Positions 52,299 through 64,000 of a stretch of 64,000 nucleotides of DNA are shown here, one piece after another. The stretch is from Tortispora ganteri. Lineage: Eukaryota. Position 1 is the stretch's first letter. Each line of letters starts with the position of its first letter. The notes under the pieces are model-generated. The model saw only the letters and a program-made list of their open reading frames with translations. It searched no databases and was not told where the DNA came from. The position numbers and the translations under genes are program-made. The DNA is taken from contig PPNB01000001.1 of the NCBI GenBank assembly GCA_003707115.1, positions 434,001 through 498,000 on the forward strand, read 5' to 3'.

Positions 52299-52385
52299 TC
52301 CCGCGTAGCTCAGTCGGTAGAGCGTTCGGCTTTTAAGACAATTAAGGCCACCGAAATGTCCAGGGTTCGAGCCCCTGCGTGGGAG
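52299..52385 (+). tRNA. tRNA-Lys(TTT) with a 14-nt intron (52336-52349)
   Basis: Acceptor TCCCGCG/CGTGGGA-G; D arm GCTCAGTCGGTAGAGC; anticodon arm TTCGG-CTTTTA^A-CCGAA; T arm CAGGG-TTCGAGC-CCCTG; 73 nt after splicing. Confidence 0.94.
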
Positions 52386-54452: not shown

Positions 54453-57072
54453 TTTTGAGCAGAGCTAAGTGTTGCGAGAAAAAGAAATTCGAGAGAATAA
54501 TGCGTAATTATATATATAAGCAGATGCAGAGCAAAGTAGCGGTCGAAGGTAATAACTGCCAATACAGGTAGAGAGTAGCACGTAAGCGTTTCAAATTTCC
54601 ATTTTGGGTTACTTGGTTAACCAAGCGGAGCAAGTTCCGGGTAGACCGTAACAGTGAATTGAGTTTCGGTGGACCACTCTTAGTGCATCACAGTCTTATC
54701 TATTAACTTTGTTAGTAATCTTATCGGTGAGGAGTTGTGTTACTGGCCAATCATAACGTCTGAGGATCTAATTCAGTCTTTCCACTACTCAATTCGGCAA
54801 TGAGATACCTACAGACATAATAATTATACTTTTGCGAGCTACATCTGTGCACATGAACACTGATTAGTATTAGCAACTGCGTATCGCTGTGCTGCGATCG
54901 AATACTATTACCGCGAGCAGTAACACTAAGAACACACTCAGCAATGATCTGTATCGGGTTTTTGTTTCCTCAAATCCTCACATACAGTGCGCGAAAGATA
55001 TTGAGATAGAGCTAGCTAACAAAATAAAACAGCAAAAACAACTGAGCAGTCTCAGCTCAGCTACTGCCAAGTTCAATCCTCGTGTCGCAACGCTACGAAA
55101 CCGCCATCAACTGTACCTGCAACAACCCGCTCACTACACATTTCCTTAACTGTATCAACCCCAGATTTTTTTATAATCAGCACTAGTATCTTGGCCTACT
55201 TGTTACCCCCATCTTGTTCTACAAACAGCAACTACTGGAGCGCTCCGGATTAGTCTTAACATTCGGTAGCGTGAACTTTCACCGGCATAAAGTTTTCTTT
55301 GTGGCTGTTGCCGCGGGCCAAAATTGCATTTTCTCAGTGGTAGCTGCGAAAAATAATAGAGACAGAAAACCAACAGAATAAAACAAAACTAGCCGGTACG
55401 ATGGAAAAATAGAAATCTAATTTGTTGCTGTTAAACGCCTTAATATCGTACGTTTTCAAGAGTTCGCACTAGACGCTATTGTCTCTCTTGCCCTAAAATA
55501 TTCAATCATAGCCAAATGGACAAGCCAATCAAAAGCCACATATCGTCGCCTAAAAGGCCCGTTTATCTAACAGCGTATCGGAAGAACACCCCACTCCTTT
55601 TACGTGATTCGTCTGCTGCAGAAGTAAATAGGAAGAAGGCGTCCTTGTCGCGTGAATGCCAAGCCGGAGATACTAGCTATCCGTAGTTGTGATTCGGTGA
55701 CTAGGTGGGCTTTTCATATTAAAGTTAACAGCTGAGCTGACCTTAGTAGACGTGCCGCCACATAATACTAGCCCCAACCCGGGGATTATCGGCTTGTAGG
55801 TATGCTGATATTGTCTCAGTACATATTCTTGTTGCATTCCAGTCAGAATATGCCGCATAATGAGCAGTTTGTGTCCAGTCACCGTTCTGGATATATATTT
55901 GCTCAGTGGGATTAAACGATTTCTTGGGTCTATTCAAACTCTAATAAGATCAAAACACCAATACAATAAAGAAGTTCTCGTATGTAGTTAGCTGCTTCTG
56001 AACCTTAAGTTGTCTGTTGCTACACATATGAAATATATTTTCGATGGCAACGTACATCTGAAGGGATCACGTCTAGGATTCAGTATGCTGCGTGTGCATT
56101 TATATGAAAAAAAAACTTGTCTTTTTGTAGCTGTGAAGGGCTCTCTGTATCCGTAGACAGTTGCGGCGCTATGGAGGTTGCTTGTAGAGGCTTAAGGTGA
56201 TGAGATTTGAACTAGTTGAAGCCGCTGTGAAATTTGCAGCGCATACGTAGAGTGACCTTCGGGTAATGGCAGTGGTGTTTATCAATATTAGTGCTACATG
56301 CGTAGATAGTAGGATACGCCAGGTCACACAACATTCGAAATAGCTTCGGATGCGAGAAAGATACATACTTCGGCAACCACCACAATCCCCATGTGGATCT
56401 GTATTTAGATAACTCTAATTGAGTGGAATTATGCGACCTTGACACACTGACACATCGTCTATTTCATCAGTAATACTGTCTGACGCGCATAGAGATCAAT
56501 TAAAGGTTCTATAGGCTGAAAAGAGAAGATTGAGGAAGTTGTTGCGATCCTGGGGAAGTAAGAGAACATAAGATTTAAAGATAAGAGATAGGGAAAGGAC
56601 GTAAATCCTCCATCCGATCGACTTAAAACTCTATGAGAATAATTTAGCTAGTGGGCAATCAGCAAGCGATCGCTAAAGTTGAAGCTAAGCTGGTAACAAT
56701 AGCTTAGAACGCATACAGCTGTACCTGAAGCAGACCGATAATAGTCGCGTAGATGGATGTTAAACTTTGCAGTGGCCGATGTATACGCCTAAAATGGCAA
56801 TAATAAAGATTAAGTTCATGCCGCAATTTCCTAAATAGGATGTTGTTTCCTGCTGCTTATCTTCCTACCGGTTACAGCAATGGGCATCTTATTGCCTATT
56901 TCTTCAATTATCGATTCATGGTCAAACACTATTCGATCTCCGATACTGCTATCAAGATAGTAAGGTTTGACGACTGATCGCATCGTACTCAAATTATAAA
57001 AGGACATGCATGCCCGCATCTATTTAATACTTCCATCGCGCCTTTCCATAAAATCGTCGCCCTACAGCACAT

Positions 57073-58737
57073 ATGAAGGTCCCCGAAATTAACGAAGAGG
57101 TCATCCCAGGTACCGTTCACCTGGTTGATTTACAAGGAACTCTCAATGTCAAGCACGAAGATGGTCACAAGGACATTGTCCTGATCCCACAGCCTACGCG
57201 CGACCCCGAAGACCCGCTCAACTGGTCTAAAAAGCGCAAACTTCTCTGCGCTATGAGTCTTATGATCGCAGTATTCTCGGCCGATGTGCTCACTACTGCG
57301 CTCTCGCCCGCCCTTCTGGTTATTGAAGCAGACACTGGTATTAGCTTATCTACGCTGAATCAGGGTATTGGTGTACAGTACCTATTCTTCGGCTGGGCCA
57401 CCGTCATCTGGCAACCGCTTGCCTTGACATTCGGTCGTCGCCCTGTTATTCTCTTTGGCCAACTCGGCTGTATCCTTTTCACCGTCTGGAGTGCCTACGT
57501 CAAGTCTGGTGGCGAATGGTACGTTAATCGTCTGCTTGCGGGTGCTTTCTATGGCCCTATTGAAACTACGATCGAAATCTGCATTGCTGATATCTATTTC
57601 CTCCACGAGCGCGGTAACTGGATTGGTGCCTACTGCTGGACTCTGTTCAACATTCCTTTCCTTGCTGGTATCGCCGCTGGTTTCATCGCGAGCAACCTCG
57701 GCTGGCAATGGATTCAGTTTATCGCCTCCATTATTGGTGCCGGCTGCTTGATTATCATATTCTTCTGCCTCGAGGAAACTATGTACTACAGACCTCCGGT
57801 ACAAGACGAACTCATCGACATCCTGGCTAGCACAACACACGACATAGAGTCCGCTGGCGGTTCTGTCGCTGCACCTGTTACTGAAAAGGCTGATCCTACT
57901 GAAGTCGATGTCAACCAGGCTAATTCTGACGGCGAATCCGAAGAAGAAACCGTCGTCTACCACAAAAAGACTTACATGGAAAGACTCAAATGCTGGGGTG
58001 CCCGTCATCCCGACCAGCCAAACCATTTCTGGCGCTCAATGTACATGCCGTTCCTTCTTATCAGGTTCCCTGCTATCCTTTATTCAGGTATCACTGTAGG
58101 TGCCATTCTATCTTGGTTCAACGTCGTCAACGCTACTATTGCACTTATTCTTGCCGCACCTCCCTACAATTTCTCTACCAATATGACTGGTGTAATGTTC
58201 ATCGCGCCCGCCATCGGTATCACCATTGGTTCGTACTTCTCAGGATGGGCTGGTGACACTCTTGCTATCTGGATGGCTAGACGCAACGGAGGTATTCGCG
58301 AACCAGAACACCGTATCTGGATTTTCTTGATTCCTTTCATTGTCCATCCGGGCGGCTGTATCCTCTATGGTGTTGGTGCCAATCACGGAATCCATTGGAT
58401 TGGTTTGGCATTCGGCTTGGGCATGATTTGCAGCACTTTCCCCATCGGATCGGCTATTGCCATCAACTATATCATCGATTCATACAAGGAAGTCTCTGGT
58501 GACGGTCTTGTCACTATGATCTGTATCCGTAACTCTATGGGTTTCGGATTCTCCTATGGTGTCACTCCTTGGATCAATGCCTGCGGTGTTCAGGATACCT
58601 ACATTGCGCTTGCCTTTTTGGGTATGTTCTTCTGGGGTATCTCGTTGGTTATGATCTTCTGGGGTAAGAAGATGCGCAAAGCTTCTGCTCGCCACTACTG
58701 GCAGTTTGTCGAGAAGTACGGTCTCAAAGCTCACTAA
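57073..58737 (+). CDS. MFS transporter, HOL1-like
   Basis: IPGTVHL...IVLIPQPT.DP.DPLNWS, FGRRP, DIYFLHERG, RRNGGIREPE.R, YIIDSY. Confidence 0.88.
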   Translation: MKVPEINEEVIPGTVHLVDLQGTLNVKHEDGHKDIVLIPQPTRDPEDPLNWSKKRKLLCAMSLMIAVFSADVLTTALSPALLVIEADTGISLSTLNQGIGVQYLFFGWATVIWQPLALTFGRRPVILFGQLGCILFTVWSAYVKSGGEWYVNRLLAGAFYGPIETTIEICIADIYFLHERGNWIGAYCWTLFNIPFLAGIAAGFIASNLGWQWIQFIASIIGAGCLIIIFFCLEETMYYRPPVQDELIDILASTTHDIESAGGSVAAPVTEKADPTEVDVNQANSDGESEEETVVYHKKTYMERLKCWGARHPDQPNHFWRSMYMPFLLIRFPAILYSGITVGAILSWFNVVNATIALILAAPPYNFSTNMTGVMFIAPAIGITIGSYFSGWAGDTLAIWMARRNGGIREPEHRIWIFLIPFIVHPGGCILYGVGANHGIHWIGLAFGLGMICSTFPIGSAIAINYIIDSYKEVSGDGLVTMICIRNSMGFGFSYGVTPWINACGVQDTYIALAFLGMFFWGISLVMIFWGKKMRKASARHYWQFVEKYGLKAH

Positions 58738-59321
58738 ATGTAAGCATAGCGCCGGTCTCTTAAATAATATATATTTATAGAAACTTTTCGGGCTTGGAGA
58801 ACTTTAACTGTTTTGTTTTGTGTTATTTATTTGCTGTTATAGCTTCCTATACATGGCATTGTTTGTTAAATTTAGAGCTTAAACGCTGAATTGTCTTGTA
58901 GTGTCGAACAAACCATATAGCAACCACATAGCAACCACAAGACAAAAGAGCAGTTTATGAGGTACGTAAACTGTCATACTTCTTCTAGCTGTCAGATTTT
59001 TTATATAATAGAGTTATTGAAACAGTAATCACATTAAGTAAGTATGATATATATATATTATGATAAAATACCTTTTTATGCACTATGAAACAAGCAATTA
59101 AGCAGGATTGACTTGTGCAATGGCGTAAAAACAGTTTGCCTCACCGAAATGTCAATGGTTTAAGGTTTTGGTCGTGATACCCTGCGTTACGCGGCTAAGT
59201 TTCGTGTTTGACCTCTTTCACAATTTCGCGAATTACAGTGCTTCAGATTGTTCTTTGAATATTTTAGATTGTCAAAGAACTTTTTATACTCGAAGATTAT
59301 AAAATAATACATTTATTAGAA

Positions 59322-61757
59322 ATGGAAGCAGGCCAACCAAGAGCGAATCGAAGCGCAAAAGTCCGAAAGACCCGTGTACCTCGTTCAATCGCGACCAGAA
59401 TAACAAGGAGAATAATGCCAACAAATCCAGAACGCATAGCCAACTCTCAGGCTGAAAACTTGGCTGTTTTGGCTACGAGAGCAGAAGCGGAGGCATTGGA
59501 GAAGGAATTAGCGCGTCGAACTAGAGAAGAAGGCAGAGAATCTAGACCAGTATCTACTAAAAAAGCTTACGATTCACAGGTCCGAGCTTACAAGGCATGG
59601 TGTGACTTACACTATATGTGTGAATCTGCAGATGGCCCGAGGTACTATGTAACAAAAGGTAAACTCTTAAGGTACCTTAAAGAGTTGGTAGATGTGGGTA
59701 ACCCCAAGGTTCAAATAACAAATGCGGCCGGTGAAACAGTGAATAAACCATATTCTTATTCTTCTATCGATTCAAAGTTATCCGCATTGATATCTCTTTA
59801 TAACATGCAAGTTGCAGAAGTCGCAGAAGCTAATAGAGGAGGTGCATGGGAACATCCTAGAAGTGCAGATGTCAAAACGCTGCTCAAGTCACTGCAGAGG
59901 ACAGAACATAGCCGTAGCAGAGAGAATTACAACGTGTCACAATATACTAAAGGAACTTATGCCCCGGAGGATTTGGTTCGCATATGTCAGCACCTTGTGA
60001 AAGATAAGCAGCAAAATAGTATTTCTCTAGCGACAGCAATCACTACTTGTCATACACTCATGTACAAAGAAGATTCGTTGAGATTTCTGCGAATTATGGA
60101 CATGAAATTGTGCTATTTGGGGCAAACAGGAGCAAAACAAACGCCTGCATTATCATTTGTTTCCACGAGATCCAAAACAAACACGTCATCCAAGCGCTCG
60201 TCATCAGCTAGCATTAGACACAAAGATGTACGTCGCTGTCAGCATGCCTGGTTGGCTATGTATATGTTCGAGCGGTTTCATTCCAATGGCGAAACAATGC
60301 CTGACTTGTCGGATAACACAGACTTCTATGATCGCGCACTCTTCGCTGATTTCGGATATGGCAAAAGCACTAATGACCCGACTCTGAGCATGCCCTACGG
60401 CTCTCATTATGAAGCGATGAGGACATTGTTCAGGAATTTGGGAATTTCTTCTGATCACATAAAGCATGCCTGCAGGTCAGCTGCCGTGCAAGAATGTGAT
60501 ATGTATTCTGATGTAAATGCCGAAGATATCGAAAGCTTTGGTCAATGGATAGGCGTTGACTTTTCAAACGCGGTAACGTCATCCTATCTCTACAACGTAC
60601 CCAAAAAACCAGTTATGGCCCTGGCGGGATTTCACTATGATGATCAGTACACCATACCAAGAGCATTTTACCGTGCCCCCAGATATATTGAAAAGCTGGT
60701 ATTCCCGTTTATAAATAAGTATACCGATATCTTGGATGCGCAAAGTGGTCAAACAGGCCCGCTTAGAGAAGGGATCAGGGACACATGTTTAGCTGAAGTT
60801 TGTGAGAACAAGGATTCCACTTACCTTCAAATGTTGCGCCAAATTGTAGAAGTTTTTGATTATCTGCGAATGGTTTTGCTCCAAGATGCACCCTTGATTT
60901 GGAATGAATATCCTAGTATAAGAACAACTTGGCATATATGGCAGCTGGATGCTTTCTCGCACCCCGATTACTTCGAGTATGCGTCAAGACAGCAACGACG
61001 ATGTGCAGAGTTTCAGCTGAATATATGCCGATACGACAATTCTGATGACGAAACTGCCCAAGATGTGTTGATGTCTGATCTCTCAATGCAACAATCTATT
61101 GTGAGCATAAGGTCTGATATAGCGCAAATCTTGGAGAACCTCGATACTATCAACAATTCATCAAGCCTTATGGAGGAAGGATTTCTGCGATTAAGTTCTC
61201 AAATAGATTCGTTAGGGCAAGAAATGGATTCGTTAGGGCAAGAAATTAAGACACAGATTAGGAGATTAATGAAGCCGATTCGAGTTACGATTGAATATAG
61301 CGATGACGAACAAGATGACCCTCAACGACGGTTAATGCAATCAACTCTGCCTACCGCAAGTATGGTCTCCAGAGCGCAACCACAGTCACAGCCACAGCCA
61401 CAACCAGAGCAAGATCAACCGCCAGAGCCAGCTATTCCGCCGGTGTCATTCATTATGGCACCTAAATCAGTGAAAGTGATCTGGGAGGAGTATGTGACTA
61501 CTCCAAGAACCAGGCCTAGTATAAAGGACTTGGAACGTCTTTACGGAGCAAACTGGCGGGGCGGTGCAGCCTCAGCTAAGTCAAAAGCATTTACTAGGCG
61601 AAATCATGTGTACAAGGCCATAGAAACCGGACTGCAGAGAGGCATGTCATTAGAAACATGCTTTACTTTGTTGGAGAATCATCGCATAAAAGATGGGAAG
61701 AAACGCGGGTTCGCCTCATCTTTGTTTAATGGTGATATTCCTGAGGAATTATTATGA
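59322..61757 (+). mobile_element. CryptonF-type tyrosine recombinase / Ndc10-domain-II protein with C-terminal GCR1_C domain (intact 811-aa ORF; transposon or domesticated derivative)
   Basis: SAM-like N-domain (RP.ST.KAY...Y..WC; L..YL; SALI.LY..Q; HPR...VK.LL); YR motifs SKTN, KHACR, GQW, SYL..P..P..ALAGF; LR.VLLQD; GCR1_C-like SV..IWEEY...PSI..LE..YG.NWR......F.RR. Confidence 0.8.
61202..61247 (+). repeat. 21-bp in-frame tandem duplication (IDSLGQE/MDSLGQE) in the coiled-coil of the Crypton-like ORF
   Basis: GATTCGTTAGGGCAAGAAAT occurs twice with a 21-nt period. Confidence 0.85.
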
Positions 61758-62811
61758 TCTAAAGGTCACGTATGCAACAATACAACAATTATATCTACTT
61801 TTCGCTAGTAACCCCGAGGTTCACTACTGAATCGCTACAAAAATCATCAGAGTTGACATTTAAATACGACCATAAGAGTTTGCCTATATTGTAAAACCAG
61901 AGACAGATATTATCTTTATATTATAATCATATGAACTTTTTTTTTTACTTTTTTTTTTCTAGTTAACGTATGTATCACGTGATTTTAAAATTCTCTGCAC
62001 TTCTAATTGTGCCGGACGTATTTCGGCCGTAACGTTCGGTTCTGCGGCCCCACAGACCTTGCCAACGCTCGTGAATTGTCGGATGCAATTCACCGAAATC
62101 ACTCAAACGATAGTTGTACAATTTAGCTCAATTTGTTGCACCCAATTGCCCCTCACTGTTGCAGGTTCCCCTCATGAAACAGTTCGTTGCCAAGCTACTA
62201 TGGGTTTCAAGGTCATAATCAGTATCGAATCGCTGTTTCCAATGTATACGCTGCTATATGTAGGCCATGTACTCCAATCTCTCTAAAATCATGTTGACTG
62301 TCTGTATTTTATAGACACGGATCGGCATTGTGCTACGAGACATTCAGCATCTATCTCATTGGTGGGTGATCTTACACGTGACCCATCGCTTAATGGCACC
62401 CTACCAATAATAAGGTTAAAGTAACCCCCCCTCCCCCATGTAGGTACTCTTCGGAACAGCTTCGGCAGTAAATATGTCTGTATATCGCGGCCAGTGCGGC
62501 TAGATAGAAAGATAAAACGCGCTTATAAACCCCATACTGTTCTACAAACAAACAGACAGGCAGATAAGTAGGCAAGCTGGTCGAGATGGCGACAATTGTG
62601 TGATTGTAATTGCTGTCACCAAGTATATATAAGGTTTAACTTTTGTGTAATTTATCCACTAAAATGCGGGGATGGTCTTACAGTACTACGCTGGAAAGGT
62701 TAAAAGCAGGTACAAGAAGGTGCAGTTTCCTGCTGTCCGGAAGCAACAATAAGTATAAATAGTGGCATATTGCCCATTTCACCCTGACATAAGATATACT
62801 ACAGATCAAAC

Positions 62812-64000
62812 ATGGGAATTGACACTGCTGCACTCAAGGAGAAAGCTGACGCTGCATTCGAAGCCGCTGTTAACAACAAAGATGCCCCCGTCGCTGGTAT
62901 CGTAGCCGGTGTCACCGACCGCAATGGCGACATATACGAGGGACAAGCCGGATACAGGAGCCTAGAGACCAAAGTACCTATGGATCAGGACACACTGTTC
63001 TACCTCTGGTCGACCACGAAGGCACAAACTGCTGCTGCCCTCCTTCACTTGTACGATCAAGGCAAGATCGACTTCCAGGACCCTGCTAAGAAATATGTCA
63101 AGGAGCTCGAGAATGTCGAGGTATTTGACGGTTTCGATGAATCTGGCAACCTAAAGACGCACCCTGCTAAGACAGACATTACTATTCACCATCTTCTGAC
63201 CCACACAGCTGGTTTCGGCTACTTCTTCTTCAACGACGAGTACCTCGAAATCCTCCAGAAGACCGGCAAGTGCAACATCACCCAGAACACCGTTCATTCC
63301 ATTTCCACCCCTCTGCTCTTTGAGCCTGGCGAAGCATGGAATTACGGTGTCAACATTGACTGGGCAGGAATAGTCTTAGAGCGCGTCTCTGGCATGCGTC
63401 TAGGTGATTATCTCAAGAAGTACTTCTACGAGCCGCTCGGCATGAACGACACAAAGTGGGATCGCACTGAGGCCGACTTAGCCCGTCAGGCTACTCATTA
63501 CCAGCGTGGAAAAGATGGTAAGCTGACTCCCTTGCCTGAGGTCATGCCACTGAAGGGCGAGCAGCATATGGGCGGTCATGGCGCTATTGGCACCGTCCGC
63601 GACTACTTGAAATTCCTGCGCATGTGGTTGAACGAAGGACGCGCGCCTGACGGCACTCAGATCCTTAAACCAGAGACCGTCAAGCTTGCCATGGAACCCA
63701 AGCTCACTACCCAGAAAATCAACAACATCAAGACAAGTCACCCTGACTTCACTAACGATGTTGAGTTTCCTCCAGATGCCGACCTCAATTGGAGCTATGG
63801 ATTCTTAGTCAACCAGGGTCCCTTCCCCACAGGTCGCCCTGCTGGATCTAGCTTCTGGGCTGGTCTTGCTAACCTTTACTTCTGGATCGACACCAAGAAC
63901 GGTATTGCAGGCTACTATGCTTCACAGGTACTGCCGTTCAATGATGTCACTTCTGCCCCTGCCTTCTACGCTCTCGAAGGCGCTGTTTATTCATCTCTCT
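62812..64000 (+). CDS. Beta-lactamase-fold (family VIII) serine esterase, nearly complete; runs off window end (not in ORF track)
   Basis: Manual translation MGIDTAALKEK...GVTDRNGDIYEG...WSTTKA (SxxK)...LLTHTAGFGY...PLLFEPGEAWNYG...MGGHG...TGRPAGSSFWAGLANLYFWID...QVLPF; no stop before 64000. Confidence 0.92.
   Translation, partial: MGIDTAALKEKADAAFEAAVNNKDAPVAGIVAGVTDRNGDIYEGQAGYRSLETKVPMDQDTLFYLWSTTKAQTAAALLHLYDQGKIDFQDPAKKYVKELENVEVFDGFDESGNLKTHPAKTDITIHHLLTHTAGFGYFFFNDEYLEILQKTGKCNITQNTVHSISTPLLFEPGEAWNYGVNIDWAGIVLERVSGMRLGDYLKKYFYEPLGMNDTKWDRTEADLARQATHYQRGKDGKLTPLPEVMPLKGEQHMGGHGAIGTVRDYLKFLRMWLNEGRAPDGTQILKPETVKLAMEPKLTTQKINNIKTSHPDFTNDVEFPPDADLNWSYGFLVNQGPFPTGRPAGSSFWAGLANLYFWIDTKNGIAGYYASQVLPFNDVTSAPAFYALEGAVYSSL

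What the first reader, a model, noticed from the sequence alone, without database searches (positions are those of the whole stretch)
59322..61757. Intact CryptonF-like tyrosine recombinase with an apparent Arg-to-Lys change in the first catalytic motif
Seen: an uninterrupted, intronless 811-aa ORF keeping K (SKTN), HxxR (HACR, 60465-60476), W (GQW) and the Tyr nucleophile candidate (SSYL, 60585). Where Cryptons have LxRGExxR it reads LMYKEDSLR (Lys at 60066-68, aligned by eye). Known: CryptonF proteins join a YR to GCR1_C, and yeast Ndc10, Gcr1, Msn1 and Hot1 derive from them. Inference: a possible independent, full-length domestication intermediate (Ndc10-like DNA-binding protein) in a lineage not expected to have point centromeres, or an atypical active element.
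Basis: partly seen in the sequence, partly recalled or inferred. Interest (0 to 1): 0.75.

Follow-up and report, generated by a model that had tools for sequence, protein, structure and literature searches.

The report
Crypton transposon copy with mutated recombinase
This intact gene is one copy of a small family of Crypton "jumping genes" in a budding yeast close to Tortispora, and this copy alone has lost a key catalytic arginine, so it looks like a weakened transposon rather than an old domesticated host gene.

Summary
Bases 59322-61757 (+) are an uninterrupted 811-codon ORF with Pfam NDC10_II plus GCR1_C, the CryptonF architecture. The model folds like Ndc10 and Cre.

The Arg-to-Lys call is right. 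A family HMM and a 61-sequence alignment both put K249 on the first catalytic Arg (R in 58 of 59 homologues), and a weak alignment to Cre puts that family Arg on R173. Contigs of another copy in the same organism, and of the copy in a related yeast, read AGA-GGA (Arg-Gly) where the window reads AAA-GAA (Lys-Glu). Lys, His, second Arg, Trp and Tyr are all kept.

The domestication reading is not supported. In the related yeast, the two neighbouring genes sit about 560 nt apart on one contig, an empty site. Its copy of the ORF lies on a different contig. The window's own organism holds at least one more copy, about 12% diverged.

Most likely this is a roughly 3.1-kb, low-copy CryptonF element whose recombinase is impaired at Arg I. 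A young exaptation or residual activity is not excluded. The element termini remain undefined. Kojima and Jurka (2011) found no Crypton insertions in Saccharomycotina, which makes this a modestly interesting new host record.

The parts
59322..61757 (+). Intact 811-aa ORF (P0001): CryptonF-type tyrosine recombinase fused to a GCR1_C DNA-binding domain
   Evidence: AF2 model has mean pLDDT 81.2. Foldseek best hits are Ndc10 4aco (7e-8) and Cre 1ma7 (1.5e-5, TMt 0.64).
59490..61001 (+). Recombinase region (aa 57-560): core-binding domain, catalytic domain and the conserved helical extension shared with Ndc10 domain II
   Evidence: Family HMM match of 343 bits over aa 57-560. Pfam NDC10_II covers aa 176-550. 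The A1 profile hits Ndc10/Cbf2 in the PDB at E=2.4e-26.
60066..60071 (+). Codons 249-250, AAA GAA = Lys-Glu, at the family's invariant Arg-Gly (Arg I of Box I; Cre R173 position)
   Evidence: Sibling copies read G at 60067 and 60070, giving AGA GGA = Arg-Gly. The window's letters are carried by contigs at about 84x, the single-copy depth.
60174..60176 (+). K285, the beta-hairpin catalytic Lys (Cre K201 position by family motif GKTNQ)
   Evidence: K in 57 of 59 homologues. The Cre K201 equivalence is by motif and recall, not by a printed alignment.
60465..60476 (+). H382-A-C-R385, the HxxR motif (Cre H289/R292)
   Evidence: H in 53 of 59 and R in 58 of 59 homologues.
60546..60587 (+). W409 to Y422: Trp (Cre W315) and the tyrosine nucleophile (Cre Y324)
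   Evidence: W in 59 of 59 and Y in 57 of 59 homologues.
61452..61685 (+). GCR1_C DNA-binding domain (aa 711-788)
   Evidence: Pfam E=7.9e-16. By my own count from the alignment printed, 96 of 101 residues of aa 711-811 are identical to the T. caseinolytica homologue P0002.
58922..61932 (+). Minimal span over which other copies align to the window at 80% identity or more (same organism and related yeast); the repeated unit
   Evidence: tables 2, 7 and 8. Summed contig depth rises from about 80 to 150-172 over 58913-61922. The relative's copy aligns over 58922-58957, 59049-59167 and 59290-61932.
58832..62379 (.). Outer limits of the insertion relative to the empty site of the related yeast; net extra DNA is about 3075 nt
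   Evidence: One 200,231-nt contig covers 56452-58746 and 62380-62431, with 558 nt of its own between them against 3633 nt in the window. The joint 58831>62380 has only 24 nt on one side.
58887..58895 (+). Candidate left terminal direct repeat TGAATTGTC (weak)
   Evidence: 9-mer shared with 62072-62080, P about 0.09 in shuffles, with AACGCT adjacent on both sides. The same organism's run contigs read other letters at 58889 and 58890, so it is unconfirmed.
62072..62080 (+). Candidate right terminal direct repeat TGAATTGTC (weak)
57073..58737 (+). Host neighbour: MFS transporter gene. Its orthologue in the relative is adjacent to the other neighbour, with no element between them
62812..64000 (+). 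Host neighbour: beta-lactamase-family serine hydrolase gene, which runs off the window

Best explanation
The ORF is the single gene of a roughly 3.1-kb CryptonF DNA transposon. The element belongs to a small, diverged family in a Tortispora-like budding yeast. It sits between an MFS transporter gene and a serine-hydrolase gene, at a site that is empty in a related yeast, so it arrived there or was cleanly lost from the relative after the two lineages split.

CryptonF proteins are thought to excise and reinsert the element by tyrosine-recombinase chemistry, with the C-terminal GCR1_C domain helping DNA binding. That mechanism is inferred from the family and was not shown here.

This copy keeps the Lys, His, second Arg, Trp and Tyr of the active site. 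It has two private G-to-A changes that turn the invariant Arg-Gly of Box I into Lys-Glu. By analogy with Cre R173K and Flp R191K, this should leave a protein that still folds and binds DNA but cleaves, synapses or ligates poorly.

The copy is therefore probably non-autonomous or only weakly active. Its open frame reflects either a recent change or residual function.
For: - Architecture and fold.
- Family size and length: known CryptonF elements are 1.8-6.0 kb with 1-24 copies (supplementary file 1 of PMC3212892, read). Here the net insertion is about 3075 nt.
- Empty site: in coded runs X3 and X7, one 200,231-nt contig carries both neighbour genes with 558 nt between the anchor points. The copy of the ORF lies on other contigs of 11,826 nt and 38,043 nt, with 278 differences and 16 gaps over 2643 nt.
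- Independent annotation: the T. caseinolytica orthologues of both neighbours (91% and 93% identity) lie on a 3,117,240-nt contig. The only close homologue of the ORF (P0002, 83% identity over aa 487-811) lies on a 3,113,199-nt contig.
- More copies in the same organism: summed depth about doubles over 58913-61922, and 17 of the 45 contigs laid are under 99% alike. Examples are 50 differences in 419 nt and 49 differences in 395 nt. Contigs with two different loose ends lie behind 58957 and 58965.
- No diverged contig covers the flanking genes, so this is not contamination or a diverged haplotype (table 2).
- Arg I. Sibling copies read Arg-Gly.
- Effect of Lys at Arg I: Cre R173K shows no in vitro cleavage or recombination, is defective in synapsis and is only weakly active in vivo. 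Flp R191K makes no recombinant products (passages of PMC2943603 read).
Against: - No near-identical copy was seen, so recent transposition is not shown. The empty site could reflect loss in the relative.
- The termini are undefined. The only candidate direct repeat has P about 0.09 and is not supported by the run contigs.
- All evidence on copies comes from assembled contigs, not reads. X1 and X2 look like one data set, and so do X3 and X7.
- An 811-codon frame with no break is hard to reconcile with long neutral decay.
- The 35 listed differences split 20 synonymous to 15 non-synonymous.
- Two hits on the two most conserved residues could mean selection for a non-catalytic role.
- Cre R173K keeps some in vivo activity, so 'crippled' is an inference.
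- One fast alignment put R254 in the catalytic column instead.
Confidence: 0.62

Rival explanations
1. Young exaptation. The copy at this locus is being kept by the host, or by the element family, for a catalysis-independent job. It could be a sequence-specific DNA-binding protein or a dominant-negative repressor of sibling Cryptons. On this reading, loss of Arg-Gly is the first step of the path that produced Ndc10, Gcr1, Hot1/Msn1 and Cdg1.
For: - The 811-codon frame is intact despite two changes in the most conserved dipeptide.
- Listed differences to sibling copies are 20 synonymous to 15 non-synonymous.
- The GCR1_C domain is 96 of 101 identical to the T. caseinolytica homologue (my count).
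- In a quick tree, P0001 is sister to two unnamed proteins (P0003, P0008) that have lost several catalytic residues.
Against: - The locus is not syntenic with the relative and is one of several copies.
- There is no evidence on fixation or expression.
- Purifying selection between transposon copies is also expected from selection on active lineages.
- The two G-to-A changes lie 3 nt apart and could be a single mutational event.
Confidence: 0.17
2. Still-autonomous atypical element. The Lys-bearing recombinase is active enough in vivo to move the element, as Cre R173K retains in vivo recombination.
For: - Five of the six active-site residues are present and the frame is intact.
- The site is occupied here and empty in the relative.
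Against: - Lys at Arg I occurs in 0 of 59 homologues.
- The neighbouring invariant Gly is also replaced, by Glu, putting a negative charge next to the scissile-phosphate contact.
- Flp R191K gives no products.
- No near-identical daughter copies were seen.
Confidence: 0.15
3. Ancient single-copy domesticated host gene, an Ndc10-like kinetochore or transcription factor conserved in the lineage.
For: Pfam NDC10_II and GCR1_C hits. The best PDB sequence and fold matches are Ndc10.
Against: - Empty site in the relative, a copy elsewhere, and extra copies in the same genome.
- The catalytic set is almost complete, unlike Ndc10, where the aligned motif positions are lost (alignment).
- Typical catalytically complete CryptonF proteins hit the same Pfam models more strongly, for example P0024 at 1.9e-64.
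Confidence: 0.04

Closest known systems
CryptonF transposons of fungi and oomycetes (Goodwin et al. 2003, recalled; Kojima and Jurka 2011, PMC3212892)
   Same: - One ORF joining a tyrosine recombinase to a C-terminal GCR1_C domain.
- Unit of about 3 kb.
- Low copy number.
- No long terminal or inverted repeats detected.
- 52 of the 61 aligned rows carry the full R-K-H-R-W-Y set.
   Different: - The host is a Saccharomycotina yeast, where Kojima and Jurka reported finding no Crypton insertions (passage read).
- This copy has Lys-Glu for the invariant Arg-Gly.
- The 6-bp terminal direct repeats typical of the family could not be identified.
- The closest full-length relatives are only 26-30% identical.
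Ndc10/Cbf2 of the CBF3 point-centromere complex (PDB 4aco, 6gys, 3sqi)
   Same: Best sequence-profile hit (E=2.4e-26) and best fold hit. It shares the recombinase-like domains, the helical extension and a GCR1_C-like C-terminus.
   Different: - Ndc10 has lost the catalytic residues. The aligned positions read LSFEE for LLRGE and lack HxxR and Tyr.
- Ndc10 is a single-copy host gene (recalled).
- The present ORF keeps 5 of 6 catalytic residues, is multi-copy and is non-syntenic.
Cre recombinase R173K and Flp R191K (laboratory mutants)
   Same: A conservative Lys at the Arg I position of an otherwise intact tyrosine-recombinase active site.
   Different: - Those are engineered single changes in distant family members, whereas here the adjacent Gly is also changed to Glu.
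- The effect on this protein was not measured.
Crypton-derived yeast genes Gcr1, Hot1/Msn1 and Cdg1 (PMC3212892)
   Same: GCR1_C domain, and a host in the same subphylum.
   Different: - Those genes share only GCR1_C with Cryptons, or have a degenerate recombinase part.

Membership tests
CryptonF transposon | Protein with a tyrosine-recombinase domain followed by a GCR1_C domain | tested here: met
   Pfam NDC10_II plus GCR1_C. Fold matches Cre, Flp and XerH. Family HMM scores 343 bits.
CryptonF transposon | Complete catalytic set R-(K)-H-R-(W)-Y | tested here: not met
   This copy reads K-K-H-R-W-Y. Sibling copies read Arg at the first position, so the family meets the criterion but this copy does not.
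CryptonF transposon | Repeated, dispersed copies and presence/absence of insertions | tested here: met
   At least one further diverged copy in the same organism, and an empty site plus a copy elsewhere in a related yeast. This is contig-level evidence only.
CryptonF transposon | Short (about 6-bp) terminal direct repeats, no TIRs or LTRs | tested here: inconclusive
   No long direct or inverted repeats flank the ORF. One 9-mer candidate has P about 0.09 and conflicts with run contigs.
CryptonF transposon | Excision and reintegration catalysed by the encoded recombinase | not testable with these tools
   This needs an excision or integration assay.
Ndc10/Cbf2-type domesticated gene | Catalytic residues lost | tested here: not met
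   Only Arg I of the six is changed.
Ndc10/Cbf2-type domesticated gene | Single-copy gene kept at a syntenic locus across species | tested here: not met
   empty site, other copies; different scaffold in T. caseinolytica.
Ndc10/Cbf2-type domesticated gene | Partner CBF3 genes (Cep3, Ctf13, Skp1 assembly) and point centromeres in the genome | not testable with these tools
   No whole genome is held for this window.

The most novel reading that the evidence does not exclude
Tortispora-like yeasts may hold a Crypton family caught in the act of being tamed. On this reading the window copy is a full-length protein that has specifically lost catalysis (Arg-Gly to Lys-Glu) but is kept open by selection, as a DNA-binding regulator or as a dominant-negative repressor of its siblings.

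In T. caseinolytica the sole close homologue is annotated only as a 324-aa GCR1_C protein, and its recombinase half may be broken. That would be a living model, inside Saccharomycotina, of the route that produced Ndc10, Gcr1 and Hot1/Msn1.
Probability: 0.15. Interest if true: 0.7.

Novelty: new member of a known kind. Interest (0 to 1): 0.42.

Why it matters
Budding yeasts carry several essential or important genes that descend from CryptonF transposons: Ndc10 of the point centromere, Gcr1, Hot1 and Msn1. Yet the 2011 survey that established this found no Crypton insertions in the subphylum. A Crypton family with presence/absence differences between close species of an early-branching yeast lineage fills that gap. 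It also offers natural material: full-length, catalytically altered and possibly truncated copies for asking how a recombinase turns into a DNA-binding host protein. The Arg-to-Lys copy on its own is most likely just a damaged transposon.

Tried and rejected
- No whole genome is held for the window, so copy number could not be counted directly.
- The word-indexed protein search with the whole ORF returned nothing, and phmmer against the PDB returned nothing. The exhaustive search and the profile search then found relatives.
- The exact sequence of P0001 is not in the protein collection.
- No RNA holder was listed for the stretch, so nothing can be said on expression.
- Earlier findings of this scan returned nothing by place or by sequence.
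- The fast MAFFT --auto run gave a register with R254 in the Arg column. I rejected it on the evidence.
- The search for terminal direct repeats was inconclusive.
- An 11-mer at 58749-58759 matches the left flank of sibling copies but lies outside the size-based limits of the insertion. It is left unexplained.
- The look-up of the hydrolase orthologue returned no accession, so gene adjacency in T. caseinolytica rests on contig length only.
- dN/dS could not be computed properly, because only 40 of 836 variant rows and 12 of 54 indel rows were printed.
- Whether 60154 C>A (TCA to TAA, codon 278) is a true stop in the sibling copies cannot be told, because the list was cut at that row.
- Literature searches for Cryptons in Saccharomycotina or Tortispora found no report later than PMC3212892. 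Subscription journals are not covered.
- Structure-level placement of the K249 side chain was not possible, because the tools return no coordinates.

Full report
**The observation.** Bases 59322-61757 on the + strand are one open frame of 811 codons. Pfam finds NDC10_II (aa 176-550, E=4.7e-22) and GCR1_C (aa 711-788, E=7.9e-16). This is the domain pair that defines CryptonF proteins (Kojima and Jurka 2011, PMC3212892, passages read). The window carries only this one copy (tblastn and blastn of the locus against the window).

**The host.** The window is a compact fungal chromosome segment with ATG2, GDH2, adenylate kinase, HIS3, actin, chitin synthase, Sec23 and others. The two neighbours of the ORF are an MFS transporter gene and a beta-lactamase-family hydrolase gene. 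They are 91% and 93% identical to proteins of Tortispora caseinolytica NRRL Y-17796. The host is therefore a close relative of that species: Trigonopsidales, Saccharomycotina.

**Relatives of the protein.**
- An exhaustive search of 1.84 billion representatives gave 782 hits at E<=0.001.
- The best is P0002, a 324-aa T. caseinolytica protein that covers only aa 487-811, with 270 of 325 residues identical and one 2-residue gap.
- Every other hit is at most 30% identical.
- In a 61-row alignment, 52 rows carry the full R-K-H-R-W-Y set. These are ordinary, catalytically complete CryptonF-type proteins.
- A quick FastTree of the recombinase core puts P0001 beside two unnamed proteins, P0003 and P0008. 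These read R-T-D-R-W-N and R-D-D-T-W-F and sit on long branches.

**Fold.** The AlphaFold2 model has mean pLDDT 81.2 and pTM 0.66. Foldseek against the PDB gives Ndc10 (4aco, 7e-8), then Cre (1ma7, 1.5e-5, TM 0.64 on Cre's length), Flp and XerH. The alignment profile hits Ndc10/Cbf2 by sequence at E=2.4e-26 and Cre at E=0.44.

**The catalytic register.** Four lines of evidence agree that K249 stands where the family has its first catalytic arginine:
- The family HMM, built without P0001 and its three nearest relatives, aligns P0001 "HTLMYKEDSLRFLRIMDM" to the consensus "shamllrgenvRkleLaDl" with high posterior probability. That places K249 on the Arg of the LLRGE motif, R254 on the second conserved Arg and D260 on the conserved Asp.
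- Alignment A1 agrees. R is at that column in 58 of 59 homologues (1 Pro), and G is at the next column in 53 of 59.
- HMMER's alignment of the family profile to Cre puts HxxR, W and Y on Cre H289, R292, W315 and Y324. A weak, non-significant stretch puts the family's LLRGE Arg on Cre R173.
- Contigs of other copies, laid on the window, carry G at 60067 and G at 60070. With the window codons AAA and GAA, that makes AGA GGA, Arg-Gly.

The window's own letters at those sites are carried at about 84x, the single-copy depth, so Lys-Glu is not an assembly error.

One result pointed the other way. MAFFT --auto on 129 sequences put R254 in the Arg column. I reject that register because it breaks the spacing to the conserved Asp and contradicts the sibling copies.

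The other five active-site residues are intact: K285, H382, R385, W409 and Y422.

**Is it a host gene or a mobile element?** One stretch of 9 kb (55000-64000) was laid with contigs of four coded public runs at 80% identity or more.
- Runs X3 and X7 are from related organisms, coded B and C. Their contigs look identical, so they count as one witness.
  - A 200,231-nt contig covers the MFS gene (56452-58746, 255 differences) and the hydrolase gene (62712-64000, 162 differences).
  - That contig has only 558 nt of its own between window positions 58746 and 62380, where the window has 3633 nt. This is an empty site, with about 3075 nt extra in the window.
  - The same runs carry the ORF on other contigs (11,826 nt and 38,043 nt). 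These align over 59290-61932 with 278 differences and 16 gaps, plus parts of the upstream region.
- Runs X1 and X2 are from the window's own organism (0.92 of the sampled words) and again look like one data set.
  - Summed contig depth rises from about 80 in the flanks to 150-172 over 58913-61922.
  - The assembly is shattered there, and 17 of the 45 laid contigs are less than 99% alike.
  - Examples are 50 differences in 419 nt and 49 differences plus 5 gaps in 395 nt on a 1428-nt contig at full depth.
  - Contigs with two different loose ends lie behind 58957 and 58965, and a 96-nt deletion variant suggests more than one extra copy.
  - No diverged contig covers the flanking genes. The extra sequence is therefore a repeat of the element, not contamination or a second haplotype.
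- Named annotation gives independent support. The T. caseinolytica orthologues of both neighbours lie on a 3,117,240-nt contig, and P0002 lies on a 3,113,199-nt contig.

A unit of about 3.1 kb with one ORF, in a few copies, matches known CryptonF families. These are 1.8-6.0 kb with 1-24 copies (supplementary file 1 of PMC3212892).

**Limits of that evidence.**
- The copies seen are about 10-12% diverged, and no near-identical pair was seen. Recent movement is therefore not shown, and the empty site could be a clean loss in the relative.
- The termini are not fixed. Similarity between copies runs at least from 58922 to 61932, and judging by the 30-nt loose ends a little further left. The size estimate places the ends near 58860-58890 and 61930-61970.
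- The only candidate terminal direct repeat is TGAATTGTC at 58887 and 62072, with P about 0.09. It lies outside that estimate on the right, and the run contigs contradict it at 58889 and 58890.

**Constraint.**
- Of the 35 differences printed inside the ORF (59438-60154), 20 are synonymous and 15 are not. This is fewer replacements than chance would give. The printed rows are a cut subset, 40 of 836.
- Against P0002, the C-terminal half is 83% identical, and aa 711-811, which hold the GCR1_C domain, are 96 of 101 identical (my count). The neighbours are 91-93% identical to their orthologues. The ORF is thus constrained, but less so than ordinary host genes.
- One printed difference, 60154 C>A, would turn codon 278 into TAA in the sibling copies, unless the next base also differs. 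The table ends at that row, so this stays open.
- That possible stop, the 324-aa gene model of P0002 and the 16 alignment gaps together hint that the recombinase half of the relative's copy may be broken. This is an inference only.

**What the Lys should do.** In Cre, R173 contacts a non-bridging oxygen and the 5' leaving group. R173K shows no cleavage or recombination in vitro, is defective in synapsis and is only weakly active in vivo. Flp R191K accumulates covalent intermediates and gives no products (passages of PMC2943603). Here the adjacent invariant Gly is also replaced by Glu. I therefore expect a folded, DNA-binding but catalytically poor protein. This is inferred, not measured.

**Verdict.**
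- The best reading is a copy of a low-copy CryptonF transposon with a private, probably disabling change at Arg I (confidence about 0.6).
- A young exaptation or repressor role (about 0.17) and residual autonomy (about 0.15) remain open.
- The host record is the more novel part. Kojima and Jurka reported no Crypton insertions in Saccharomycotina, and four full-text searches found no later report.

Noticed in passing
window 62812-64000 (+): Apart from a 93% identical protein on the 3,117,240-nt contig that also holds the T. caseinolytica MFS orthologue, the named hits printed for this beta-lactamase-family hydrolase gene are bacterial. They are about 45-51% identical ('methyl acetate hydrolase', Geodermatophilus, Eremiobacterota and others). 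This looks like a bacterial gene acquired by this yeast lineage.
   Followed up: partly
P0002 (T. caseinolytica ODV90740.1) against window 60780-61757: The only close homologue in the public annotation is a 324-aa model that starts at a Met aligned to R486 and holds only the helical extension and GCR1_C. The recombinase half is unannotated. A printed variant (60154 C>A) would make codon 278 a stop in the sibling copies.
   Followed up: partly
window 58749-58759: The 11-mer AGCGCCGGTCT, 12 nt after the MFS stop codon, matches the sequence that lies directly left of the shared 5' end in sibling copies (loose-end consensus). It sits about 130 nt outside the apparent left end of this copy. It is unexplained and could be chance or a preferred target motif.
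   Followed up: partly
window 58889, 58890, 58907: Contigs of both runs of the window's own organism read other letters than the window at these three places, at full depth, right at the presumed left end of the element. This is either a strain difference or an assembly path through a repeat.
   Followed up: no
window 58913-58939 and 61201-61242: There are two small tandem duplications. One is an 11-nt unit upstream of the ORF that is absent from sibling copies. The other is a 21-nt unit inside the ORF (IDSLGQE/MDSLGQE) that is also present in P0002.
   Followed up: partly
coded runs X3 and X7, contig of 335 nt on window 59108-59167: A short piece of the element's upstream region stands at 252-301x, against 94-173x for single-copy contigs of the same runs. 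The relative seems to hold extra fragments of this part.
   Followed up: no
window 52299-52385 (+): ARAGORN reports an 87-nt tRNA-like gene with an unassignable anticodon. It may be an intron-containing tRNA.
   Followed up: no
P0003 and P0008 (unnamed contigs): These are two full-length NDC10_II plus GCR1_C proteins, the closest full-length relatives of the ORF (30% and 26% identical). They have lost several catalytic residues and end in a similar IP-x-EL tail. They are candidates for domesticated Crypton genes in other yeasts.
   Followed up: partly
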